In this document: in pieces, positions 1,345 to 60,000 of the stretch
Numbering within the stretch: the first letter of the stretch is position 1
Layout: each line of letters opens with the position of its first letter
Assembly (NCBI GenBank): GCA_044892525.1
Contig: CM097885.1
Coordinates: 34,784,001-34,844,000, forward strand
Length of the DNA stretch: 60,000 nucleotides
Direction: 5' to 3'
Source: Schmidtea polychroa
Taxonomy: Eukaryota
The notes under the pieces: generated by a model
The model's database searches: none
Told to the model about the DNA's origin: nothing
What the model saw: the letters and a program-made list of their open reading frames with translations, nothing else
Translations under genes and position numbers: made by a program

Positions 1345-4300
1345 TTATCCATACAGGTTGTTGATGTCAATATACAACAACTCTGTATTTTCATCACTAC
1401 TAACAAAATGTTTATTCACAAACGTTATCCCACCTCTAATCCCACCTTCAAAGAAATTATACATTTCCATGTCGGTGAGAAGCTCAATCGGTTTATCAAG
1501 ACTTAACAAAGCAGAACTCCAAGAAAGACTGGGGATACCTAGGAAATTCAAAGGCTCAAGCCTATTATGAGCAACACTCTTAGCTCGGAATTGCTGAAAA
1601 AAGTCAGCCAACAGAAATACATCTAATTTCAAATAGACCATCATATAATCCAAAAGGGAATTACATGATGTCTCTTGCCAGATTAGTTTTGCTTTATTGT
1701 ATTCATCATCGGATACATCACTCCATTTAGGGGGCAATTCTAATGTAGAAATTAATACATCAAGGGAAGTTGCTACATCATAAGGGAAAATCCCTTTACT
1801 CTTAATAATAGACCCTCTAAACTCAGATTCTGTCAAAGGTAATGTGTTAAGGGTTGAGACAGCATTTTTCAAAGACGAATTTACAAACTGACAAGAATCT
1901 ATAAATTTCACAGTCAGGGAATCAATATGCACAAAAAGAGATAAAAATTTTTCACTTGTCACCGGTATACAAGAAATATGCCAGGACTTATATTTAGCCA
2001 AGCCAAATTTGAGGATATGATGGAGATCATACCCTCTCAAATTATGAAAGACTACAGGTAGTGTGTGGTATATTTTCCTGGAAAGATTACAAGTGTTGCA
2101 AGCAGCACCAAGGAATTGACCGGTAAAGTGATCATGATCCCTGACTGGTTTAACTAATAATTTTTTACACAAATGACAGTTTGTGCTGTTATTAAAATTA
2201 ATTTGGTCATTTTCTGTGAATATCATTTTCTTATTTTTATTTTTATAATAATAGGGAGTTACAATCTTTTTAGCGATATCATTAATTTCTTTTAAAAATT
2301 CGTCTATACAAGAAAGGCCTATGAATGATTTATAAAATTTTGCGCCTGTATTATTATTTATACATAAAAGTCCAGCCGAAATGGGTAAATGTTTCTGATA
2401 ATATTTAGAATCTTTAGGAAGGATTGCCTCAAAATCGGCATAAATAACAAAAGGAGGAGTAATCATTTTACTATAGTCTGTGAATTCTAATAATGGATCT
2501 TTTGGTAGTGTGTACATTGTGGTTCCTAATTGGTTTCGTTCACAAAGACCTTGATGTTTAATAAAACTATCTTCAAATCTGAATCCATTCAGACATCTAG
2601 GACACCACTTACAGTAAATACGAACAGAACTTATTGATGAATTTCGGCAATTAAGAAAGATGTTTAAATCAGATATAGCGACGTAATGGTAGGTTTTCCG
2701 ATTCTGTAATAATAACAAATTTAGACAAGTACCTCCTACTATTTTACTGCGATAAATTATATCTATAAAAGGATGTTTCATGATGGGACCCGAAATTAAC
2801 CCAGTTTCGTCATAACTTAAAACATTAATTGAATAACCTGGGTTTTGTCGTTCAAATTTTGAGATATTTGATAATTTCATTGGCATATCTGCCGGGTTAT
2901 ATATCAGATCTGAAAGGTTATAAGAACTAGGCAGATGACGCAATTCATCAGGAGTACTATCATATTTTATAAGAGCCAAAACCGAGTAAAGGAAACAAAA
3001 TTCGTCATCATTATTTACATTTATTATACATTTTTTCCTGATTAATGTTTTCGGGGTTTCAATATATTTACGACCACTCAACCTACTAATCTTTGAATAT
3101 TTTGTCACAATAAAACTAATGTATTATATTTTGTTAATGGTCCAATTACTTCCCTTTTCATTTATTTTACTAATTTTTTCATTTAAAAGAGAGATACCAT
3201 CATCAATAAATGTGTCGCTCCATACACGAGCAGAGTTTGAGATTATGAAAGACTGAAATTCATCATTTTTCTCAAACTCTACTTTAATACAAAATTGAAT
3301 TTTTACTGATTTCATTTTATTTACAATTTCTAACAATTTTTCTATGAGAACGTCAGGAACAGAAAGAATTTTACAATTCAAGGAAGATATATCCAACTTA
3401 ACTATTACATGGGAACTATTCAGGTCGGAAACTACGTCGACTATACCACTACCTACTTGGGGTACAACATCACTATTTTCAAATTCACTATTTTCAAATT
3501 CACTATTTTCAAATTCACTATTTATAACTTCACTATTTATAACTTCACTATTTACAACTTCACTATTTACAACTTCATTACTTACAACATCATCGTCGTC
3601 TTCACTAATGACTATTATTTCTTTCATCTTTTTTGTGGGAATTTCTGTGGGAATTTCTAAATGTCTTTTATTACCTATTATTCCTATTAATCTATTGACT
3701 GTTTCCATTAATTGTCGATTTTGTATCAACATGGCATTAATCATACTTTTGTTGGTGGTCCTATTATTGATTTTTGTTGATGTTTCCATTAATTGTCGAT
3801 TTTGTAAGTTTTCGGTGTTCCTATTATTAGTTGATGATATATATTTTTGATACGCAATTTTGAAAACTGATTTTTTAGAAGGCATATATTGGGTTAAATG
3901 ATTACGATGTTTATCATAAAATTCGGTATATGTCGATGTTTCAAGAGTTTGGCATGTAGGACATAACAAGTATGTTACACTTTTATATTCATGACCATAA
4001 TATTTTTCCATAATATCGTCACAGTCATGATGTGTAGCACTGTTACAAAAGGTTGGATATTTATAACCTATAAAATAAGTAAAATAGTATTATTATCAAA
4101 ATTATTATTATTATTATTATCAAAATTATTATTATTTATTATTACTATATAATCTGAGTTTATACGACAAAATATTCTGTCCCTCCCTTGCTCATAAGTG
4201 TATTATATTTAAATTTATTTTAATTAAATAAAAACATATTCATTTTCTTTATAAAAATTAATTTCATTATTTGTTTCATAACAAAATTGACTTCATACAT

Positions 4301-4686
4301 TTTCTTTATAACAAAATTGACTTCATATTAATTTAAAAAATCATAATAATTTAAAGTAAATTAATTTAAAAATCATAATAATTTAAAGCATATTAATTTT
4401 AAAATTTTAAAAAACCTACATTTAGGTTTCTTGCACGCGAGATTGTGTACAGCATTATTTACTAAAAAATCATAATAATAATAATAATTTAAAAATTAAC
4501 TTTACCATAATTTCCGGAAACATTATTTTCAATTCCATTACTTGCTGAAAAATTATAAGTTCCCGAAACATTATTTTCATTAATGTAGACTAAAATATAA
4601 ATAAAAATAAAAACATATTAAAAAAAAAAATTACCCATACGATTTCTTCGAATCATTTCCTTGATTTCATTTGAAATATTTTGCAT
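1345..4686 (-). pseudogene. 3'-truncated inverted copy of Polinton protein-primed DNA polymerase B
   Basis: ORFs 3124-4011 and 1345-3108 are in the same frame, separated by one TAA. Contains exo motifs YADFE, FHNLRGYD, YLKLDV and endonuclease VII-like RDHDHFTGQFLGAACNTCNL. Stops right after Pol motif A YIDINNLYG at the duplication junction. Confidence 0.92.
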
Positions 4687-4927
4687 TTTGAATAAATGAA
4701 AAAGAATTACAAAAACATAGATTATATATGTAACCTTTATCCAATCAAAATGCAGATAGGATAGAAAAAATTAACGCACACATATTCATGTCTTTGTTTA
4801 AAAAAAGAATGAGTCATCGATGACTCACATAGTAACAAATAATGTCTTTGTTACTCACATAAAGACATGCAATACAAGTGCATGAAATTTGTTGATATGA
4901 ATAATAAAATTAATTAATAATTATAAT

Positions 4928-5056
<129 letters not shown>

Positions 5057-10000: not shown

Positions 10001-13000
10001 TAAATTCAAAGACCTCAGTAAAAGATCAAAATTCGCTAAAATGAATATTTCCTACAAATATTTCACCACATTCACCATCAAATATCTAATTAGAGATGAA
10101 ATATATTGATAGATCATCGATTCGGCTAATTATAGCCATTATAAAATGATATATCTTTCAAACTAAATCACAAATTTCAGTATATTTTACATTAATTTTC
10201 AAGTAGATTTCAAATATATCATCATCATGATAAAATTAGTTGGTTTCAACTTTAGATTTTCAATATTTTAAAGTATCATCAATGTGTAAATATTCTTAGA
10301 AAAATATATTGATATATTAATTTAGTCAAATTCAATATCATTACAAAGTCATTATCATCAAAATTTATCCTATCACTTGATTATTAACCTCATTAAAAAT
10401 TAATTTTTATTTAAAATTTAAAAACAAGTCAATAAAATATAGCAAATTATCAAGAAATTAATTAAATTTATCTTAGAATTAACACTAAGCCTTAAATATT
10501 CTTTCAATTAACATGAAATTCACAAAAAAAAAATGTTGGTAAAATCCCGCTAACTCTAAAAAATTACCAATGAATTTAACGCCAAATAATAACCAAATAT
10601 TTGCCTAAATAAAACACAGCAGTACCTTTACGATCAGTACCCTTACGACCAATACCCTTACAAGCAGTACCCATAGAGGGAGAAAATATGTTGTCGGATA
10701 AACTCAGAGTATATATAATAAAACGAATTAACTATAACTCCATCAAATTGAATCAGTCAAATTAACACAAATTTTAATAAAAAATCTTATTCTAAAATGG
10801 TAAGCAGCGTAAAATCGAAAGATAACACAGAGATAAAATTAACAATATTATTCTCAGGTGGTAAGAATATTTTATTTTTGAGTCTGTTATCCCTTTATTA
10901 TCATTGTTTACTTTGTGTTTTCATATATTTAAGTAAAGTTAATGGCACACTTTGTTTCGTTCTTAACTTTGAGAGATCTTTTTGATTGAAGACTAATGTA
11001 TCTTAAATTATATTTTAGAATATTTGTTTTAGAAATATTTAATGTAAAATAGTAAATATAATAATTATTAATTCAATATTAAAGGAGTTAATCAAAATTT
11101 AAAATATGAATTATCATAATTGCTCAGTCAAATACCATTTGTTATGTATGTTTTCATTTGTGGATTAAATACTCTATCAAAATAAATGTTTATCACATTA
11201 TTAGAATATTTTAATTCGTTAGTAACTCATATATTAGAAATAATTTTATATATCCTCATCACTTATAGCCCCCAGATTTTCCACTAATCCTATATTATAA
11301 TTATATTCGGTTGGATTTAGTGAAGGTTAAGATGGTAATATATGATTTTTAAGGGGGTTTTTAAAATGCTAGAAATATTTGGTGAGGGATCGGTTAATGT
11401 TTTGAATATTTATATATTCTTATTGGTAAAATATCAAATTTTGAAGGGAAATAGTCAGCTGTGAATAGTTCCTGTGAAATTATATCGTTTTAGAGGTTGC
11501 ACAGTAATTTATGTTTCAGAACCAGTTTTAATTAATTATCCACGGTTTTATTAATGGTTAATGATCAATTTACTTGTTTTTGACAATGAGAAATTTGAAA
11601 TCTTTAGAATTAATTGATATCAATGGTTATTGCTTTAAATTATTTTTATTTAAGAAGTTATTTTATTCATTTTGGGGATATCGTTGACAAAGCTTGAGAA
11701 ATATTAACTTAAAAGAATTGGAAAACAACTAAAGAAAAATGATCTTTGAAGGAAATTTATGATTTTAATTAGAAATTAAATCGGTTGAATATCTATTGAA
11801 GGAATATTGTTATCGGATGGATAAATGATATTTTCCTAAATTACCTTATTATATTATTATTTTAATGACTAAATTAACCAATATTCATAAATTTATCGTA
11901 CAAAATATCCATGTTTTGGTTACTCAAACATCTTAAATTTCTCGCAAAGATATATTACGTCTAATGATCATCTAATTAAATTAGAAAATAATTGTTACTT
12001 TTTAATATATATTTCTAACTAAGAGGCGCCTTAATTGGATAAATGATAACCATATTTCTATTATGACTCCTTTAATTATTTTTGCCTCAAACAAATTTAC
12101 TCCAAATGATAAAGAATTTAAAATTATCAATGAATAATGACCATGTTTTCTCATATTATTAACTATTGTAACGAACATTAGATGAATAAATTAATTTTTG
12201 CTTTAAATGACTACAAAGTTAACCAATAAATTAGTCGCTCGACATAAGTGTAAAGTTACATTTAAAATATTCACGAATTTCTGATCATCTCACTAAATTA
12301 CCTAAGAATTTCTAAATGATTAATATTGCGACATGTTGAATGTGACCAGTACCCTTGCTAGCAATACCCATAGGGGGACAGAATATTTTGTCGGATAAAC
12401 TAGGAGTATATGGTCTTTATTGATATATCAAAATACTGTTATTTATAAATCAACTAAAAAATACTCAAAAATACTATATTATTTTACTGAATGATACCTT
12501 AAATGTTTTTAATATACATATTTCTAAAATAAATCAACAGTTCAAACCAACAACATTTATGCAAGACCACCCATTGTTAATTTATTTCCAGTGTCACATC
12601 ATTCAAGAATGCCGTGAGTGTTTAAAGAAAGCTGAGCTAAAAGAAACTTTCCAGATAACAACTCTACTGAATGTTTTGAACAAAAATGAGCGAAATTGAG
12701 AACAAACGATTAGATGGCAATTAACTTCTGGCCACAACCCTAACAACATGAAAATTAAGATTTTAATTATTGAATTCGTTGTTTTCTGCATGGAAATACT
12801 AACAGAATATTTTTTAATTCAAAAAATCTTCATTATAAATTTTTGAATTTAAAAAATTAAATGAAGGATATATAAGTGTACATAATATTATAATATTATA
12901 TAAAATTATACTGTATTTATTAATAAATTTAGAATACATAAAATTATAATATTATAATATTTTATAAATACTATATAATAATGTGTAAATATGCTTAAAT

Positions 13001-16914: not shown

Positions 16915-17117
16915 AATTTCATGCACTTGTATTGCATGTCTTTATGTGAGTAACAAAGACATTATTTGTTACTATGTGAGTCATCGATGACTCATTCTTT
17001 TTTTAAACAAAGACATGAATATGTGTGCGTTAATTTTTTCTATCCTATCTGCATTTTGATTGGATAAAGGTTACATATATAATCTATGTTTTTGTAATTC
17101 TTTTTCATTTATTCAAA
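16915..17117 (+). promoter_or_regulatory. Putative PolB promoter: double AP-1 palindrome, CCAAT, TATA
   Basis: TGAGTCATCGATGACTCA at ~16977, GATTGG at ~17058 and TATATAA at ~17076, with ATG at 17118. Related module repeated at ~22070-22195. Confidence 0.55.
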
Positions 17118-20100
17118 ATGCAAAATATTTCAAATGAAATCAAGGAAATGATTCGAAGAAATCGTATGGGTAATTTTTTTTTTAATATGTTTTTATTTTT
17201 ATTTATATTTTAGTCTACATTAATGAAAATAATGTTTCGGGAACTTATAATTTTTCAGCAAGTAATGGAATTGAAAATAATGTTTCCGGAAATTATGGTA
17301 AAGTTAATTTTTAAATTATTATTATTATTATGATTTTTTAGTAAATAATGCTGTACACAATCTCGCGTGCAAGAAACCTAAATGTAGGTTTTTTAAAATT
17401 TTAAAATTAATATGCTTTAAATTATTATGATTTTTAAATTAATTTACTTTAAATTATTATGATTTTTTAAATTAATATGAAGTCAATTTTGTTATAAAGA
17501 AAATGTATGAAGTCAATTTTGTTATGAAACAAATAATGAAATTAATTTTTATAAAGAAAATGAATATGTTTTTATTTAATTAAAATAAATTTAAATATAA
17601 TACACTTATGAGCAAGGGAGGGACAGAATATTTTGTCGTATAAACTCAGATTATATAGTAATAATAAATAATAATAATTTTGATAATAATAATAATAATA
17701 ATTTTGATAATAATACTATTTTACTTATTTTATAGGTTATAAATATCCAACCTTTTGTAACAGTGCTACACATCATGACTGTGACGATATTATGGAAAAA
17801 TATTATGGTCATGAATATAAAAGTGTAACATACTTGTTATGTCCTACATGCCAAACTCTTGAAACATCGACATATACCGAATTTTATGATAAACATCGTA
17901 ATCATTTAACCCAATATATGCCTTCTAAAAAATCAGTTTTCAAAATTGCGTATCAAAAATATATATCATCAACTAATAATAGGAACACCGAAAACTTACA
18001 AAATCGACAATTAATGGAAACATCAACAAAAATCAATAATAGGACCACCAACAAAAGTATGATTAATGCCATGTTGATACAAAATCGACAATTAATGGAA
18101 ACAGACAATAGATTTATAGGAATAATAGGTAATAAAAGACATTTAGAAATTCCCACAGAAATTCCCACAAAAAAGATGAAAGAAATAATAGTCATTAGTG
18201 AAGACGACGATGATGTTGTAAGTAATGAAGTTGTAAATAGTGAAGTTGTAAATAGTGAAGTTATAAATAGTGAAGTTATAAATAGTGAATTTGAAAATAG
18301 TGAATTTGAAAATAGTGAATTTGAAAATAGTGATGTTGTACCCCAAGTAGGTAGTGGTATAGTCGACGTAGTTTCCGACCTGAATAGTTCCCATGTAATA
18401 GTTAAGTTGGATATATCTTCCTTGAATTGTAAAATTCTTTCTGTTCCTGACGTTCTCATAGAAAAATTGTTAGAAATTGTAAATAAAATGAAATCAGTAA
18501 AAATTCAATTTTGTATTAAAGTAGAGTTTGAGAAAAATGATGAATTTCAGTCTTTCATAATCTCAAACTCTGCTCGTGTATGGAGCGACACATTTATTGA
18601 TGATGGTATCTCTCTTTTAAATGAAAAAATTAGTAAAATAAATGAAAAGGGAAGTAATTGGACCATTAACAAAATATAATACATTAGTTTTATTGTGACA
18701 AAATATTCAAAGATTAGTAGGTTGAGTGGTCGTAAATATATTGAAACCCCGAAAACATTAATCAGGAAAAAATGTATAATAAATGTAAATAATGATGACG
18801 AATTTTGTTTCCTTTACTCGGTTTTGGCTCTTATAAAATATGATAGTACTCCTGATGAATTGCGTCATCTGCCTAGTTCTTATAACCTTTCAGATCTGAT
18901 ATATAACCCGGCAGATATGCCAATGAAATTATCAAATATCTCAAAATTTGAACGACAAAACCCAGGTTATTCAATTAATGTTTTAAGTTATGACGAAACT
19001 GGGTTAATTTCGGGTCCCATCATGAAACATCCTTTTATAGATATAATTTATCGCAGTAAAATAGTAGGAGGTACTTGTCTAAATTTGTTATTATTACAGA
19101 ATCGGAAAACCTACCATTACGTCGCTATATCTGATTTAAACATCTTTCTTAATTGCCGAAATTCATCAATAAGTTCTGTTCGTATTTACTGTAAGTGGTG
19201 TCCTAGATGTCTGAATGGATTCAGATTTGAAGATAGTTTTATTAAACATCAAGGTCTTTGTGAACGAAACCAATTAGGAACCACAATGTACACACTACCA
19301 AAAGATCCATTATTAGAATTCACAGACTATAGTAAAATGATTACTCCTCCTTTTGTTATTTATGCCGATTTTGAGGCAATCCTTCCTAAAGATTCTAAAT
19401 ATTATCAGAAACATTTACCCATTTCGGCTGGACTTTTATGTATAAATAATAATACAGGCGCAAAATTTTATAAATCATTCATAGGCCTTTCTTGTATAGA
19501 CGAATTTTTAAAAGAAATTAATGATATCGCTAAAAAGATTGTAACTCCCTATTATTATAAAAATAAAAATAAGAAAATGATATTCACAGAAAATGACCAA
19601 ATTAATTTTAATAACAGCACAAACTGTCATTTGTGTAAAAAATTATTAGTTAAACCAGTCAGGGATCATGATCACTTTACCGGTCAATTCCTTGGTGCTG
19701 CTTGCAACACTTGTAATCTTTCCAGGAAAATATACCACACACTACCTGTAGTCTTTCATAATTTGAGAGGGTATGATCTTCATCATATCCTCAAATTTGG
19801 CTTGGCTAAATATAAGTCCTGGCATATTTCTTGTATACCGGTGACAAGTGAAAATTTTTATCTCTTTTTGTGCATATTGATTCCCTGACTGTGAAATTTA
19901 TAGATTCTTGTCAGTTTGTAAATTCGTCTTTGAAAAATGCTGTCTCAACCCTTAACACATTACCTTTGACAGAATCTGAGTTTAGAGGGTCTATTATTAA
20001 GAGTAAAGGGATTTTCCCTTATGATGTAGCAACTTCCCTTGATGTATTAATTTCTACATTAGAATTGCCCCCTAAATGGAGTGATGTATCCGATGATGAA

Positions 20101-21699
20101 TACAATAAAGCAAAACTAATCTGGCAAGAGACATCATGTAATTCCCTTTTGGATTATATGATGGTCTATTTGAAATTAGATGTATTTCTGTTGGCTGACT
20201 TTTTTCAGCAATTCCGAGCTAAGAGTATTGCTCATAATAGGCTTGAGCCTTTGAATTTCCTAGGTATCCCCAGTCTTTCTTGGAGTTCTGCTTTGTTAAG
20301 TCTTGATAAACCGATTGAGCTTCTCACCGACATGGAAATGTATAATTTCTTTGAAGGTGGGATTAGAGGTGGGATAACGTTTGTGAATAAACATTTTGTT
20401 AGTAGTGATGAAAATACAGAGTTGTTGTATATTGACATCAACAACCTGTATGGATGGGCTTTATCACAAAAGCTTCCCGACGGTGGTTTTGAATGGGTGA
20501 CTGATGACATTGCTTTAGAGAGATTATTAATTGAGTGCACAACGGAAGATTTAAATCAACTTGATTATGGCTATACTATAGAAGTAGATTTAAAAATACC
20601 GAAATCTATCCATGACAAACTAGATGATTTTCCGGTAGCTCCTGGTAAGATGTGCCCACCTTTTTCTAAAGTGGAGAAGTTGCTACTTACACACGATCCG
20701 AAAACACACTATGTTTTACATTGGCGACTTCTCCAAATCTTTCTTCAGTTAGGTGTTGTTGTTACCAAGGTACATAGGGCTATTAGGTATACACAAAGCA
20801 CTGTCTTCAAGAAATACATAGATACCAACACACAACTACGAGCCGCATCCATAACACCGCTCGATAAAGACTATTACAAGTTGCTCAATAACAGTTTGTA
20901 TGGAAAAACTGTTGAGAACTTGAAAAAACGTATTAACTTACGACTGTGCAATTCCGCACACAAACTTATCACATATGCCTCAAAACCGGCATTTAAGAAA
21001 TCTACTAGGATAGACGATGATTTGATTTCGGTTTTGCTTATGAAAGAGTCTGTATGTTTAGATAGGCCCAGCTACATCGGGCAAACTGTACTTGATCTTT
21101 CTAAACTGAGAATGTATCAGTTGCAGTATAATGAATTGCAAAAATATCGCGATGAGTTTAACTGTGAAATTAATATAGTAGCTAGTGATACAGACTCTTT
21201 CTTTTTGGAAATTAAAAATTGTAGTCTTGACATTCTCTTACCTGCCATGATTCGTGACTCCTTGCTTGACACATCTAATTATAACCCACAACATCCTTTA
21301 TATAGTAGAGCACTAGATTCCGTCATTGGAAAATTCAAAGACGAGAATAAAGGATTGAGATATAAGGAGTGGGTGTTTCTTCGTCCCAAGTGTTACAGCT
21401 TATTAGGTGATAAAGAAACTCTTAAAGCAAAATCTGTCACGTTGAAAGATACTGGCTTAGATCACAATTCCTATCGTGATTGTTATTTTAACAATAAGGT
21501 TTACTCTGTGCCACAATTCCGCATTGCATCCAAAAATCATCAATTGTACAGCATAAAAAACATTAAGAAGGCGCTGACAAATAGAGATGACAAGCGGTAT
21601 TGGAAATCGAAAAACAAGAGTTTGGCATATGGGCATTATCGGATAGGGGACACTTTTATATATGATGATGACGACAATTTTGACGGAGAAGATTACTGA
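17118..21699 (+). pseudogene. Polinton/adintovirus-type protein-primed DNA polymerase B with endonuclease VII-like insertion; predicted exons 17118-17169, 17214-17297, 17342-17383, 17736-21699; one in-frame stop (18677-18679) and one frameshift (~19851-19855)
   Basis: Motifs YADFE, FHNLRGYD, YLKLDV, YIDINNLYG, KLLNNSLYGKT, SDTDSF and RPKCYS, plus zinc-finger-like CPRC..H..C and CHLC..RDHDH..ACNTCN. Three GT-AG introns, all phase 1, keep the frame. Confidence 0.93.
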
Positions 21700-21873: not shown

Positions 21874-21964
<91 letters not shown>

Positions 21965-21996
21965 TTAATTATTATTATTACTAGTATTGTCATAAA

Positions 21997-22059
<63 letters not shown>

Positions 22060-22412
22060 TTACATAAAGACATTTCATGCACTTGTATTGCATGTCTTTA
22101 TGTGAGTAGAAATTACTCAGTTAGTAACAATGACTCATCGATGAGTCATATTCAGAGAACAAAGCATCGATAATATCCAATTCTGATTGGTTAGATGTTA
22201 TCGATACTTTGTACATCTTTTCAAATGAGGTAATTATTATTTTTTTATGATTTAAATTTTTTTATAATGAAATTTTTTTATGATTAATTTTTATTTTTTT
22301 TTTTATGAAACCAGTTTTTATGAAAACAAATTATATAATTTATGAAATAAATTTTATGAAAACAAACTTTTTTATGAAGAAATGGGTATGTTTTTATTAT
22401 TATTATTATTAA

Positions 22413-22481
<69 letters not shown>

Positions 22482-22559
22482 TGTTATTATTATTATTATT
22501 CTGTAGCGACATACAATAAATTTTGGTTTACCAAAAAAGAAGTCTTCTAAAAATTAGAG

Positions 22560-23261
22560 TCGTGTGATGAGTCTTTCTTTTAAAAATAAATGATTGGTCT
22601 TTGTTCAAAAAAGTCATCGATGAGTCATACAAGGGGGGGGCGGAGTATGCAAAAAAAGAAACCCCCTATCTAAACTATGAGTCATCGATGAGTCTTTGTC
22701 TATATGTCTTTGTTTAAATGTACTTAAATATTTGATTAAATGTCTTTGTTTAAATATTTGTTTAAATGTATTTATTTAAATATTTGTTTAAATGTATTTA
22801 TTTAAATTTTTGTTTAAATGTATTTATTTAAATATTTGTTTAAATGTATTTATTTAAATATTTGTTTAAATGTATTTATTTAAATATTAAATATGTCTTT
22901 GTTTAAAAAATGATGAGTCATACATACTTTAATAATGAGTCAGTTGGCTTTGTTCCAAAAATGATGAGTCATATGACCTTGTTACTAAAAATAGAATGAC
23001 CTTGACCTAGTTACTAAAAATAGAATGACCTTGATGAGTCATCGATGACGTCACGTGACATTGTTACTAAAAATAGAATTACCTTGACCTAGTTACCACG
23101 GTTGCTATGGATGAGTCATATAACCTTGACCCAGTTACCGCTGTTGCTATGGATGAGTCATCGATGAGTCATATGTCTTTGTTTTGCGCTGAGTCATCGG
23201 GGGGGGGTAGTGCAAAAAAATGACAAAAAACGATGAGTCATGGAGCACACTTCTCTCTACT
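22560..23261. repeat. Terminal repeat region of element B
   Basis: Many GATGAGTCAT and TGACCT motifs, 26-bp tandem TTTGTTTAAATGTATTTATTTAAATA (~22740-22890) and G-runs. Confidence 0.85.
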
Positions 23262-23867
23262 ATGCTGTTCTTCTGATTTACGTGCAGGTCTTATAGCAAC
23301 AACACAGTGCGCAAAATGGTTTTAGATTACAGCAAAATAATTAAAAATTCTTTAATCATTGAAATAGATGGCAATAAACCCTGAATTCTGTGTAGGTGAC
23401 AAAATTTCATTACCGTTGGATGAATGGACATCACTACGTAACCGTCTGCAAATAAATATATACAGGTCCTAGAACAAAAGATTGCAGAATATGGACTTGA
23501 TTTCCGAAAGGATATCGTCGGAATTATGACTGACGGAGCAAGTGTAATGAAAAAAACTTGGGAGGTCATTACCTGTAAATCAACAGTTATGTTTTGCCTG
23601 TGGCGTGCAACTGACCATAATTGAAGAACTATATCAAAAGAAGGATATAGAAAGAGAAACAGATCAGTAATTCGACGAATTTAACGTATAATATTATAAT
23701 TTAATATACTGTTTTTTATAAAACTATTTTTGAATGTGTCATTTTATTAATTTTATCAAAATAATATGTTAATATCTTTCAAGAACAGGTATTTAAAAAT
23801 CCCGGGACTAGTTAAATGCAATCAGAAATATCGGGATTGAAAATATAGCACTGGATTGCCAACACTA
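23262..23867 (+). mobile_element. hAT transposon relic with transposase fragments and right TIR
   Basis: Translations KFSLPLDEWTSLRNR and DIVGIMTDGASVMKK/LGRSLPVNQQLCFACGVQL; ends GGATTGCCAACACTA. Confidence 0.8.
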
Positions 23868-38818: not shown

Positions 38819-54002
<15,184 letters not shown>

Positions 54003-54032
54003 GTAATAATCATCAGTTGTGGAGCTATTATA

Positions 54033-54231
<199 letters not shown>

Positions 54232-54830
54232 GTATTTATTAAAAATGTTTACTATGAATCAGTAAATATATCAAAAACATCGATATATTAACTGATTCAT
54301 AGTCAAATTTTTTAATAAATACAATATCAATGGAAAAGAAATCAGTAGTGTAATTGAAAAAAAAGTTCTTATAATATTATTGTTATTATTAGTCTGTGAA
54401 TGATAATTTTGAACAGATGAATGACAATTTTACTGTAAAACAGTTCAAATTCATGATCTAAAATCCACAGACCCATAAGGTTGATCAATTTTAGTAAAAT
54501 GACCAATATTTCAACTTTAACGAATATTGGCATCTATATTCGTGAAATTACACGTGAAACTCACATGTTATAATATATTGGAATGTATTAAATAATGCTA
54601 ATTTAAATTATACATTTTATAAATTGGTTTCCGTATCTATTAAAGATTTTAATGATAATGTTTAGTGAAATTTTATTCATAAGAGGTGTTTAAGTTGAAT
54701 AAAATCTATACTTTCAATGAGTTATATAAGAAATTCTTTAAAATATTTCAAAATGTATGCAATATTGAAAGTTTTCCATTCGAATTTGACATTATTCTTA
54801 ATCAGTAGATATATATGACCTTCCTGCCTG

Positions 54831-55267
54831 ATTTTGGTACGCCCTTACTATTCAATAATTAGTCAATAGTTAACGAATATTTTCATTAATTATTTCCTTT
54901 TATTTTATTATTTTTATTTAATTAATTAATTAATTATTTATTTATTTCTTTATTTTGTTATTTTATTTAATTTATTTTAATTTAAATTTAAATTATTATT
55001 TCTTATCTGTAATTCTTATTACTCTTTTTTTACTAATTTACGCAAACTTATATATGAGCTTACGGAAGCAATTTGGTACCCCCTTACTACTCAATAATTA
55101 ATCAGAAGTTATTATTTTTTTTTATTTAATTAATTAATTATTATAATTTTATTTCTTTATTTATTTCTTTATTTTGTTATTTAATTTTATTTATTTTAGT
55201 TTAAATTTAAATTATTAATTCTTATTTGTTATTCTTAATACTTTTTTTTACTAATTTATGCAAACTG
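54831..55267. repeat. ~240-bp tandem duplication
   Basis: TTTGGTAC(G/C)CCCTTACTA...TACTAATTTA(C/T)GCAAACT occurs twice (~54831 and ~55071). Confidence 0.85.
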
Positions 55268-55399
55268 AGACAAAAATGTTCAAAATATAAAAATATATTA
55301 GTCAAACATATTATACATTTAATTCTAAAGAAAATCAATAAAAACAAATTTTTTAACAAAGATTTATTTAAATAGCAACTGGTATATCTTCAGCTGATT

Positions 55400-57050
55400 C
55401 TTTGAATTGCAAGAATGATGGATCCGGATCGAATTATTGAACAACAAATGAGACATCTCCCATATAATGCCCAAATGCCTAACTTTTATTTTTCCCCATC
55501 CAAACCCTTTTATCATCTGCTTTAGTAAGTGCAGTTGTTTCATTTTTTATGGTGAATAGCTGGTGATTTTTGCAAGTTATTTTAGTTTGCGGTATAGAAC
55601 AATTTGATTAGTATTATAACAATTCAGATATCACTGATGCTTTATGTCACTACCTTTCAGTGTTACACCTTTAGCTTTTTTAATCTCGAATCACCTAACA
55701 AACTATAGCACATTAGTCTAAGAAAACCCCAATCCTTATATTTAAGCCCTTTATTCTCGTTTTTGAACTTTCCAATGACAGAATCAAGGTTCCTACTGTA
55801 TAATGGATGATTTGGGTCATAATTTGAAGTGTCCAGCAAATTATCTCTGATCATGGCAGGTAAAAGAACATCAAACTTACAATTAACTACTTCAAGGAAA
55901 AATGAATACGTATCACTTACAACGATATTAATTTCACTGTTGAATTCGTTACGATATTTTTGTAACTCTTCATACTGCAGCTGATACATTCTAAGTTTAG
56001 ATAAGTCCAGTACAGTTTGGCAAATGTTGCTGGGTCTATCTAAACAAATAGCTTCCTTATTTAGCAAGACTGATATTAAGTCATTGTCAATTGCATAAGT
56101 CCTTTTAAACGATGGTTTAGATGTATATGTAATCAGCCTAGAAGCCGAATTGCAAAGCCCTAAATTCAGGTGTTTTTACAGATTCTCTACGGTCTTGCCG
56201 AAAAGACTATTATTTAATAACTTATAATAATTTTTATCCAAGGTATTACTCGATTCCGAAGTAAGTGGGGTATTGGTATTGATGTAATCTTTAAAAATAT
56301 TATCGTTTTTGAATTTAATTGCCATATGTACATGAATTAATTTTATACCAAAAGAAAGAAAAAGCTTGAGAAGTCTCCAATGAAGAACATAGTTCTTTTT
56401 GAGATGATGTATAAGCATCAACTTCTCAACTTTAGGGCCAGATGGACACATCTTTTCAGCGGCAACTGGAAAATCATCCAATTTGTCGTAAATCGAATTT
56501 CCAAATCAACCTCCAAGGTAAATTCAAATGGAAATACTTCGAAATCTGCAGATTCACAAAAATAAATTATTTTATTTAACTCTTCTCTATTGGTTACCCA
56601 TTTAAAATCCTTATATGGAAGATTTTGGCTTAAGGCCAGCCCATACAAATTATTTATATCAATGTAAAGAAGTTCTGTATTGTCGGAGGATACTACATGG
56701 TGTTTGTTTAACAAATGTTAATCCAACACGGATCCCTCCTTCGAAAAAATTATACATCTCCATATTTTGCAACAGCTCGATAGGAGATTTCAAAGTCACT
56801 AAAGCGGAACTCCAGCTCATGCCTGGAATTCCCAAGAAATTAAGAGGTTCAAGTCGATTATGTGCAATAGATTTTGAACGAAATTGTTGAAAATAGTCAG
56901 CTAGTAAGAAAACATCCAATTTAAGATATAACATCATGTAATCAAACAATGATTCACAATGAAATTCTTCCCAGATATGTTGTGCCCTTTTATATTCATC
57001 GGCCGTCACTCCTTCCCAAATTGTTGGTAAGTCATACATATCTTTTAAAA
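55400..57050 (-). pseudogene. Decayed Polinton PolB, C-terminal half, diverged subfamily
   Basis: Frameshifted ORFs with YLKLDVFLLADYF, YIDINNLYG, KLLNNSLFGKTVENL and LLDTSNY. Confidence 0.92.
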
Positions 57051-57059
57051 CTGTTACTG

Positions 57060-57650
57060 TTTGTCCACAACCAACGAAACTATTCGTAATTTCCGATGAT
57101 GAAGATGTTCATTCATCAAATGACGAAAATATTGTTCAATATGGTGGTTCTGATGAACCTTTAATTAAATTTAATTTGAATAAGGCACATTCTATTGTTA
57201 AAATGGTTTCTTTAAATTTAAATAAATTAATTATCCCTGCACCATTATTAACTGAATTAAATTCTGTTATACCCGAAATGGGATATGTTAAAATTCAATT
57301 CTGCATTGATGTAGAATTTGAAAAAGATGGACAATTTCAGTCTTTTATAACATCTAATTCGGCGAAACCCATGAGTTATACCCTTTTAGATGACAGTATT
57401 GCTCTTTTGAATGAAAAAATAACTCAAATCTGCGAAAATGGTAGTCAATTAATAAAATTAAGGAAATTAGTTTTAAATTGACAAAATATTCACGAATAAG
57501 TAGGTTGAGTGATCACGGAGGTATTAAAACTCCTCCAAAATTATCCTTAAAACATTGTACGGGTAATGTGAAAAACACTGGCGACATGTGTTTCATCAAT
57601 ATTATTTTGTCTATTAAAATATTATGAGGTTAGACATGACAGAAATAGAG
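57060..57650 (+). pseudogene. Decayed Polinton PolB N-terminal fragment
   Basis: VKIQFCIDVEFEKDGQFQSFITSNSA and TKYSRISRLS match 18500-18730. Confidence 0.85.
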
Positions 57651-58329
57651 CATCTTTGACTCAAGACTTTCTGCTAGACTTTCACAGTTATTTTAATAAA
57701 TGTTAATGTATTTAGTGTATTTAATAAATGTATTCAGTCATATTTGTTTTTCACTTCTTTAACAACGAAATTGCAATATCAATGCAAAACACATGCAAAT
57801 TTTATCAAAGACATTCTATAAACAAACTTATATTATATTTTTAAAGTGTTAATAAAGAAAAAGGTTAATATGATTAGTTAATTATCGAATTATTTATTGT
57901 TTAGAACATTTAATCAATTTTTTGTTGGCAAAATTAGCAGAAACATCTGGTGTAAAAATAGAGGATATATCTTTTTCAAATGCATTAAATATAGGCTGGG
58001 TAGCCGAAAGTGAAGATTCAGGATTTGATGAAACTGATGAGGAAATAACTGAAGAAATTGATGAAGAAAACACATAAGAAGACGAGGAGAAAATCATTCA
58101 AGAAATTGGTGAACCTAAGGAGGAATTTACGGATTATATAACTGAAAATATCAAGGATACCGAACCGCGTGAATGTAACGACTGTATAGATCATGTCGTT
58201 GAAAGTGTTATGAAATGCGGAGATGATGAATGTGAATGTGTTAATAAATTTTAGTTTGAGTGTATATTTAAATTATAATATTTATAAATAACAACATTAA
58301 CTTTTATTTAAATATTTACACATTACATA

Positions 58330-58832
58330 TACAACAACTCCCATGGCTAGTCACATATAACCTTTGAATTTTTTTTTGGCTTGCTCTATTTCTTGAGCGT
58401 TCTGGGTAAGTTCGACTAGTGTGCACCATCCACCATTGGCATCGATTCATGGCGTAAATTTGGATTTGGCTATCTACAAATTAATATTAATAATAATAAT
58501 AATAATTTAAAACATAATAATAATTTACTTCTAGAGACCACAAACAGTAATGGTGAGCATCGTATAGACTTTTTTTCTATAATAATCTTCATATAGGTAA
58601 AACCTATGATTATTCTGGTCCACTTCATTTGGTCTTCGAATAGACAGTCGAAGATCCTATTGAATTAAAATTTCTTCGTCTCCAGGCATTCCATATTAAG
58701 CATGGTCTGGTAGACGAGATGGTTTCCATCGATGATTTTCTCAGTTTGTTTAACTAGAAAACTGAAGCTTTGAGCGATATTCTCATTAACCAAAACTTTT
58801 AAGATGTTTTCAGCAAAATTTGATTTTGACAT
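58330..58832 (-). pseudogene. Decayed, apparently spliced Polinton accessory gene, unknown product
   Basis: CCAAT and TATAAATA upstream of ATG 58832, GT-AG intron ~58475-58529, frames broken by stops. Confidence 0.35.
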
Positions 58833-59079
58833 TGTATATTAATTTTAAATATAGTGTTCTATTTATAATAATACTGGTTATGATTGTGATTGGTTAATAT
58901 ATTATAAATGTAAAACATAAGAGATTTGATTCGATTCAATTCTATATTATATTTAGTAAACTTTCGAATTACATGTATTTTCTTTAAAAACACTTTGATT
59001 TTGCCCTAATGTATTGCCCTTTACACACATTCACTCACAATCACTTAAGATCTCGCTTAGAAATATTTTTCTATCCTTA

Positions 59080-59414
59080 AGGTGTGTAATACAAAGACAT
59101 ATGCAATACAAATGCATGAGTAACAAAGACATTTGCAATGCAGACGTAGTATTAAAATGTGTTTTGACTTTGAAAAATTTTCTAAAAAGTAATTCTTTAA
59201 ATGGGCTTAAGAAAATTTTTAATTTGACATCAATTTGACCTGAAAATTAAGGGGTAGGGGTTGACCTCAAAATTTGACCTTAAAATGGTTTAAAATCTAC
59301 TTTGACCTCAGAATTTGACCTTAAACTATCCTCAAAATTGGATTGACCTCAAATTTTTCTATCGCCTTAAGTTAACCTTAATGATGAGTCATCATGAGCT
59401 CACTTCTACATACT
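59080..59414. mobile_element. Terminus of a B-related Polinton inserted into another PolB copy
   Basis: GATGAGTCATCATGAGCTCACTTCTACATACT aligns with 23232-23261. TTGACCT repeats present; PolB sequence resumes at 59415. Confidence 0.7.
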
Positions 59415-60000
59415 AACGTCTGAATTTGCGGCTTTGTAATTCGGCTTCTAGGCTGATTACATATACATCTAAACCATCGTTTAAAAGGACTTATGCAATT
59501 GACAATGACTTAGTATCAGTCTTGCTAAATAAGGAAGCTATTTGTTTAGATAGACCCAGCTAAATTGGCCAAACTGTACTGGACTTATCTAAACTTAGAA
59601 TGTATCAGCTGCAGTATGAAGAGTTACAAAAATATCGTAACGAATTCAACTGTAAAATTAATATCGTTGTAGGTGATACGTATTCATTTTTCCTTGAAGT
59701 AGTTAATTGTAAGTTTGATGTTCTTTTACCTGCCATGATCAGAGATAATTTGCTGGACACTTCAAATTATGACCCAAATCATCCATTATACAGTAGGAAC
59801 CTTGATTCTGTCATTGGAAAGTTCAAAAACGAGAATAAAGGGCTTAAATATAAGGATTGGGGTTTTCTTAGACTAATGTGCTATAGTTTGTTAGGTGATT
59901 CGAGATTAAAAAAGCTAAAGGTGTAACACTGAAAGGTAGTGACATAAAGCATCAGTGATATCTGAATTGTTATAATACTAATCAAATTGTTCTACACCGC
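59415..60000 (+). pseudogene. PolB C-terminal fragment, inverted near-identical copy of ~55590-56170
   Basis: MYQLQYEELQKYRNEF...LLDTSNYDPNHPLY; shares the inactivating DTYS change. Confidence 0.92.

What the first reader, a model, noticed from the sequence alone, without database searches (positions are those of the whole stretch)
17118..17791. Polinton PolB appears to have a spliced N-terminus with three phase-1 spliceosomal introns
Seen: GT-AG segments 17170-17213 (44 nt), 17298-17341 (44 nt) and 17384-17735 (352 nt) join four exons in frame, giving MQNISNEIKEMIRRNRMVYINENN...NLACKKPKCYKYPTFCNSATHHDCDDIMEKY. This builds a Cys/His cluster across the last junction. The ATG lies just downstream of TATA, CCAAT and AP-1 motifs. 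The predicted host intron at 38909-38952 is also 44 nt. Established: Polinton PolB is usually annotated as one ORF. Inference: this virus-like element uses host-style short introns, so ORF-based annotation misses its N-terminus.
Basis: partly seen in the sequence, partly recalled or inferred. Interest (0 to 1): 0.7.

Follow-up and report, generated by a model that had tools for sequence, protein, structure and literature searches.

The report
Spliced start of Polinton DNA polymerase
The DNA polymerase gene of a virus-like jumping element (Polinton/Maverick) in an animal genome, likely a flatworm, begins with three tiny exons separated by host-type introns, and a likely RNA data set holds the spliced form; these core genes have been described as intron-free, so intron-blind gene finders would miss the protein's start.

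Summary
Confirmed. The three GT-AG segments are at the stated coordinates, all phase 1, and join in frame. A run guessed to be RNA holds an 801-nt contig with joints at introns 1 and 3; its length equals the four exon pieces exactly, which requires intron 2 to be removed too. A DNA-like run shows the unspliced form. Three other Polinton families in the genome (38-61% identical in the next domain) have unrelated leaders but the same design: 3-4 phase-1 introns, the last splitting a Cys codon. That Cys is conserved in 6 of 9 outside homologues. The protease gene is spliced too; integrase and a Bcl-2-like gene carry introns at shared positions. The element is a 16.7-kb Polinton with TIRs and 6-bp TSDs. 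This window's copy is rearranged and broken, and the RNA matches sibling copies. Papers read call core Maverick genes intronless. The scan already noted this on other DNA, in this genome and others; the junction evidence is what this report adds. A regulatory role is not shown.

The parts
16977..17082 (+). Promoter-like motifs: two AP-1-like sites (16977, 16988), reverse CCAAT (17059), TATATAA (17076); function untested
   Evidence: ATTGG plus TATA-like word also seen by eye upstream of the family 2 and 3 starts
17118..17169 (+). polB exon 1, coding part (ATG at 17118, 52 nt)
17170..17213 (+). Intron 1, 44 nt, GT-AG, phase 1
   Evidence: joint in run X1 at the matching place of sibling copy L051 (9170-9215, depth 14.7, 85 letters on the short side)
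17214..17297 (+). polB exon 2, 84 nt, Asn-rich, made of two similar halves
   Evidence: halves z 4.1, 1 of 300 shuffles
17298..17341 (+). Intron 2, 44 nt, GT-AG, phase 1
   Evidence: not listed as a joint (the tool skipped this repeat); required by the contig length 155+84+42+520=801
17342..17383 (+). polB exon 3, 42 nt; ends in the first base of the conserved Cys codon
17384..17735 (+). Intron 3, 352 nt, GT-AG, phase 1, splits the Cys codon
   Evidence: joint in run X1 (L051 9385-9738, depth 14.7, 39 letters on the short side); same position in families 2-4
17736..21699 (+). polB exon 4: Cys/His domain, linker, likely TP and vOTU, exonuclease with EndoVII-like insert, polymerase. Broken in this copy by a stop at 18677-18679 and a frameshift near 19850
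21931..23261 (.). Right terminal inverted repeat (about 1.3-1.4 kb), ending ...CTACT
23262..23267 (+). 6-bp target-site duplication; its twin lies before the left end, 10.2 kb upstream of the window (L049 9822-9827)
1347..5034 (-). Inverted duplicate of the polB 5' two thirds (ATG at 4686) with the same three introns, part of this copy's internal rearrangement

Best explanation
The polymerase gene of this Polinton family has three short GT-AG introns at its 5' end that are removed in a likely RNA sample, most likely by the host spliceosome as an ordinary, constitutive step, which supplies the start codon and completes the first Cys of a predicted zinc-binding domain. Steps: (shown) exon-intron layout, spliced contig, conservation of phase and of the split Cys codon in four families; (inferred) host RNA polymerase II transcribes integrated copies from the TATA/CCAAT region; (inferred) the 59-residue Asn-rich leader is a disposable linker, since its sequence and exon number differ among families, while intron 3 is old and fixed because it cuts a needed codon; (inferred) the ancestor started Met-x-Cys without a leader, gained the intron in the Cys codon, and the leader then grew by copying phase-1 exon-intron blocks; (from 10.1101/2024.03.18.585575, passages) the product would be a TP-vOTU-Exo-Palm polyprotein, here with the Cys/His domain in front.
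For: Joints at introns 1 and 3 and in the protease gene in run X1, none of them in X6, X7 or X8; X6 holds unspliced pieces over introns 1-2 and the intron 3 acceptor. Contig arithmetic 801. Family 2: 6 of 10 loci parse cleanly with phases 1,1,1, one more is ambiguous, three do not parse; exon lengths differ only by multiples of 3 while intron 3 ranges 531-824 nt. Family 3 (L076): 44- and 46-nt introns, phase 1. Family 4: 4 of 6 loci intact with four phase-1 introns, last codon T|GC. Cys at the junction column in 6 of 9 outside homologues, 4 of them starting Met-x-Cys. Host myosin introns by a crude parser: median 52 nt, 32 of 42 at most 60 nt.
Against: Only one run shows the joints, it is only guessed to be RNA, and it is held as contigs, not reads. 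Intron 2 is deduced, not listed. The integrase and Bcl-2-like introns gave no listed joint (repeats skipped). The 29 of 30 family 1 copies with all six dinucleotides are 99% identical, so that count says little. Zinc binding is by motif only: no Pfam, PDB, Atlas or fold match. Block duplication is weakly supported: intron 1 resembles intron 2 in families 2 and 3 (z 3.5, 4.4) but not in family 1 (z 1.5). Whether the Met-x-Cys homologues are intron-free DNA was not seen.
Confidence: 0.88

Rival explanations
1. Splicing is real and is also a regulated switch: retention of intron 1 or 3 stops polymerase synthesis in most cells, and full splicing happens only in some cell types (as recalled for the P-element third intron).
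For: Retaining intron 1 gives a stop after 31 codons; intron 3 cuts a conserved Cys codon and is kept long (352-824 nt) in all four families; protease and integrase are cut by introns as well.
Against: In run X1 one unbranched contig crosses all junctions and intron 3 depth is low (1.45 against 12.3 in exon 4), which fits efficient splicing; a stop on retention is expected for any AT-rich intron; no tissue data.
Confidence: 0.15
2. The joined contig comes from an intron-free DNA copy (processed or episomal) and not from RNA.
For: X1 is only guessed to be RNA and covers all 30 bins of the element; the genome was not searched for a joined form; 63 joints were hidden.
Against: X6 shows no such joints and holds unspliced pieces; none of the 30 best family 1 loci lacks an intron; a run of the same study has poly(A)-like loose ends. 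An intron-free DNA copy would itself imply earlier splicing.
Confidence: 0.05
3. The GT-AG segments are chance features of AT-rich DNA and the protein starts at the Met at 17792.
For: AT-rich DNA offers many GT and AG sites; three database homologues are called from that Met.
Against: Joints at the exact sites; four families keep phase and the split Cys; starting at 17792 would drop four conserved Cys/His positions.
Confidence: 0.02

Closest known systems
Polinton/Maverick elements of animals (adintoviruses; vertebrate Mavericks PMC8097293; nematode Mavericks 10.1101/2022.07.12.499685)
   Same: About 16.7 kb, TIRs beginning AG, 6-bp TSD, pPolB, rve integrase with chromodomain, A32-like ATPase, adenain protease, two capsid-sized ORFs. 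Bcl-2 homologues are reported in adintoviruses (PMC8502044, passages).
   Different: Both papers state in the passages read that the core genes are intronless; in nematodes only cargo genes have introns. Here polB, protease and integrase are split.
TP-vOTU-Exo-Palm pPolB of polintons (10.1101/2024.03.18.585575, passages)
   Same: Cys and His motifs of a vOTU-type domain precede Exo I-III and Pol A-C motifs (patterns recalled).
   Different: A spliced low-complexity leader and a CCHC + CCHH cluster sit in front; an EndoVII/HNH-like insert lies in the exonuclease; no Pfam DNA_pol_B_2 hit.
Introners inside Maverick-Polinton-like viruses of dinoflagellates (PMC11957031, passages)
   Same: Spliceosomal-type introns inside full-length Polinton-like elements.
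   Different: Those are young intron-generating transposons in protists; here the introns are old, position-conserved and not alike in sequence among families, and splicing of a core gene is seen in an RNA-like run.

Membership tests
Polinton/Maverick | Terminal inverted repeats starting 5'-AG | tested here: met
   About 1.4-kb TIRs starting AGTAG in copies A, C, D, E; window copy has both ends
Polinton/Maverick | 6-bp target-site duplication | tested here: met
   5 of 6 copies with both ends (A, C, D, E, window; not F)
Polinton/Maverick | [quoted passage not shown] | tested here: met
   Exo I-III and Pol A-C motifs in a 1328-codon frame of a sibling copy (patterns recalled); 656 library hits at E<=1e-10 to its N-terminal 520 residues. 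Pfam gave no PolB hit
Polinton/Maverick | Retroviral-like integrase | tested here: met
   rve E 1.6e-7 on the upstream exon, rve_3 and Chromo on the downstream exon
Polinton/Maverick | Packaging ATPase and adenain protease | tested here: met
   Pox_A32 E 1.2e-6; Peptidase_C5 E 1.2e-7
Polinton/Maverick | [quoted passage not shown] | tested here: inconclusive
   ORFs of 409 and 351 codons in the expected places, no Pfam hit; not folded
Polinton/Maverick | Core genes intronless (a described trait, not a defining one) | tested here: not met
   Joints in polB and protease against the statements in PMC8097293 and 10.1101/2022.07.12.499685
U2-type spliceosomal intron | GT-AG ends, T-rich 3' tract, size within the host range | tested here: met
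U2-type spliceosomal intron | Precise removal from RNA | tested here: met
U2-type spliceosomal intron | Branch point, lariat, dependence on the spliceosome | not testable with these tools
   needs lariat sequencing or knockdown
Introner (intron-generating transposon) | Many near-identical introns at unrelated gene positions | tested here: inconclusive
   Introns differ among families and genes; host genes were not searched for copies
vOTU-containing pPolB | Catalytic Cys and His in an OTU fold | tested here: inconclusive
   Motifs present and aligned with homologues; the single-sequence model failed (pLDDT 36)

The most novel reading that the evidence does not exclude
A whole flatworm lineage of still-active Polintons has put its polymerase, integrase and protease under the host spliceosome, with one ancient intron inside a zinc-ligand codon acting as a cell-type gate on replication and a leader that keeps breeding new phase-1 exon-intron blocks; this would tie the element to hosts that splice 37-50-nt introns and make it a natural model of intron gain in a virus-like genome.
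Probability: 0.15. Interest if true: 0.75.

Novelty: new variant of a known kind. Interest (0 to 1): 0.52.

Why it matters
Surveys of Polintons and related viruses call genes as plain ORFs and state or assume that they lack introns (PMC8097293; PMC9356565; 10.1101/2025.04.19.649669). Intron-bearing lineages would be scored as broken and their proteins truncated; here the integrase looks frameshifted and the protease and polymerase lose their starts. Split core genes also mean nuclear transcription and dependence on host splicing, which bears on the open question whether such elements move between hosts as viruses. Four families with 3-4 phase-1 introns give a compact case of intron gain.

Tried and rejected
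Run search listed no holder on record as RNA; X1 is a guess. Runs X7 and X8 covered too little of polB to tell. Copy-to-copy conservation in family 1 is uninformative at 99% identity. Copy E seemed to lack the integrase intron; it has it, with a length that keeps the frame open. The blind parser fails on long AT-rich introns, so its host lengths are rough. Folding 554 residues without an alignment failed; the four-sequence model of the Cys/His domain has pLDDT 72-76 only over residues 31-60 with a two-strand-plus-helix pattern and no useful fold match; Atlas, PDB sequence and Pfam searches gave nothing. No related loci in viral contigs; three further contig scans did not complete, so the DNA of the outside homologues was not seen. 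The genome was not searched for an intron-free joined copy. Kapitonov and Jurka 2006 is not held; it is cited only through PMC8097293. Eight literature searches found no paper describing spliceosomal introns in core genes of animal Polintons; Repbase entries, subscription papers and supplements were not seen and may describe them. Group I/II introns rejected on length.

Full report
Observation. All three segments are as described: 17170-17213 and 17298-17341 (44 nt each) and 17384-17735 (352 nt), GT...TAG, 86-93% AT, phase 1. Exons of 52, 84 and 42 nt join in frame to the ORF 17714-18679. The last junction forms a Cys codon; unspliced, the first Met is at 17792. Exons are GC-richer than introns 1-2 (52 of 178 against 7 of 88), and 0 of 2000 block shuffles gave an open two-intron chain.

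The element. The genome has 781 Mb; a DNA search gave 1220 candidates, and the 40 scored are 99-100% identical. Fetched copies show a 16.7-kb element with 1.4-kb TIRs and 6-bp TSDs in 5 of 6 copies that have both ends. Pfam finds integrase, chromodomain, A32-like ATPase, adenain protease, TBP and a weak Bcl-2 match; polymerase, exonuclease and vOTU-type motifs are present (patterns recalled). The window's copy spans 33.4 kb between its TSDs, carries an inverted duplication and foreign DNA, and its polB has a stop at 18677-18679 and a frameshift near 19850; five of six sibling copies fetched have an open 1328-codon frame. The best named hits of a neighbouring host gene are flukes, so the host is likely a flatworm.

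RNA. Run X1 (guessed RNA, contigs only) has an 801-nt contig whose match begins exactly at the intron 3 acceptor and a same-depth match ending at 17015; 155+84+42+520 = 801. Laid on a sibling copy, X1 shows GT..AG joints for intron 1 (44 nt) and intron 3 (352 nt), both at depth 14.7, and a 37-nt joint in the protease gene at depth 47.1; X6, X7 and X8 show none of the three, and X6 holds unspliced pieces over introns 1-2 and the intron 3 acceptor. Intron 2 lies in a repeat that the tool skipped. X1 also shows three joints without GT..AG ends elsewhere in the element. The contig differs from the window copy at 17069, 18105 and 18115, where 28-29 of the 29 other loci also differ, so the RNA comes from siblings.

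Conservation. Within family 1, 29 of 30 loci keep all six dinucleotides, which says little at 99% identity. A protein search listed 96 of 150 matches at 79% or more and 54 at 65-66%. This family 2 has three phase-1 introns of 47, 46-47 and 531-824 nt; 6 of 10 loci parse cleanly, one is ambiguous, three do not parse; exon lengths vary only by multiples of 3. An old family 3 has 44- and 46-nt introns and a long third. Family 4 has four phase-1 introns, intact in 4 of 6 loci. In all four the last intron splits the Cys codon. Leader exons show little or no similarity among families. The protease, integrase, Bcl-2-like and one minus-strand gene have GT-AG introns at the same places in families 1 and 2, and flanking exons show an excess of third-position changes. 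A crude parse of host myosin genes gave a median intron of 52 nt, 32 of 42 at most 60 nt, so 37-56 nt is host-like.

The protein. The four families keep a C-x6-C-x4-H-x2-4-C cluster and a C-x2-C-x14-H-x2-H cluster (one decayed family 3 copy lacks the third Cys). In 6 of 9 outside homologues a Cys fills the column of the split codon, 4 of them starting Met-x-Cys; the other 3 are called from the internal Met. This supports the spliced reading, shows the annotation loss, and suggests that the leader and its introns were added in front of an old start. Zinc binding is inferred from the pattern; no family or fold was matched. Most leader exons in families 2 and 4 end in AATG, and intron 1 resembles intron 2 in families 2 and 3 but not in family 1: weak support for growth by copying exon-intron blocks.

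Mechanism. Most likely (0.88) the host transcribes integrated copies and the spliceosome removes the introns constitutively, giving the start codon, a linker and the first zinc ligand of the polymerase polyprotein. A regulated switch on top of this is possible (0.15) but X1 suggests efficient splicing. A DNA origin of the joined contig (0.05) and chance (0.02) are unlikely.

What is known. Passages read: vertebrate Mavericks have no introns, in agreement with Kapitonov and Jurka 2006 (PMC8097293); nematode Maverick core genes are intronless and only cargo has introns (10.1101/2022.07.12.499685); introners occur in dinoflagellate Polinton-like viruses (PMC11957031); group I introns in cryptophyte PLVs (PMC12220804); Bcl-2 homologues in adintoviruses (PMC8502044); TP-vOTU layout (10.1101/2024.03.18.585575); ORF-only calling (PMC9356565; 10.1101/2025.04.19.649669). 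Term look-ups in PMC10748475, PMC11296320, 10.1101/2024.03.25.586562, PMC11244446, 10.64898/2026.07.28.741278, PMC6431247 and PMC11131425 showed no passage on spliced core genes. Eight searches found no description of this trait in animals; Repbase and supplements were not seen. The scan's own notes report the same trait in this genome and in others; two of them say spliced RNA had not been seen.

Verdict. A real feature and a new variant of a known kind: a Polinton lineage with spliced core genes, here backed by junction evidence from one run and by four families. Interest 0.52.

Noticed in passing
L051 8409-8445 (sibling copy, outside the window): 37-nt GT-AG intron right after the first codons of the adenain protease gene; joint seen in run X1, same position in family 2.
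   Followed up: yes
L051 5023-5132: Integrase gene split inside the rve core by a GT-AG intron made almost wholly of ATT repeats; length varies among copies, same position in family 2; no joint listed (repeat skipped).
   Followed up: partly
L051 597-1137; decayed relative at window 58300-58850 (-): Two-exon Bcl-2-like gene (weak Pfam match) next to the left TIR, intron position shared by families 1-3.
   Followed up: partly
L051 2897-3355 (-): Small TBP-like gene carried by the element (Pfam TBP E 3e-16).
   Followed up: partly
window 1-20460: Large palindrome centred near 10600 with a 1.4-kb unique middle, inside one TSD-bounded Polinton copy; may be a replication by-product or an assembly fold-back.
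   Followed up: partly
window 4183, 6287, 6754, 8817 (-); 12375, 14438, 14908, 17620 (+): A GC-richer motif of about 60 nt recurs in the inserted DNA and once inside polB intron 3; unexplained.
   Followed up: no
window 53000-60000: Decayed, rearranged copy of a third Polinton family, 68-79% identical to families 1 and 2.
   Followed up: partly
window 22200-22510: The TIR repeats the polB upstream motifs and is followed by an ATG, a GT and a long AT-rich stretch ending in AG; possible spliced transcript in the TIR.
   Followed up: no
proteins P0126, P0130, P0149: Outside polB homologues end early in hydrophobic tails that look like read-through into introns, hinting at introns at other positions in relatives.
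   Followed up: no
   Followed up: partly
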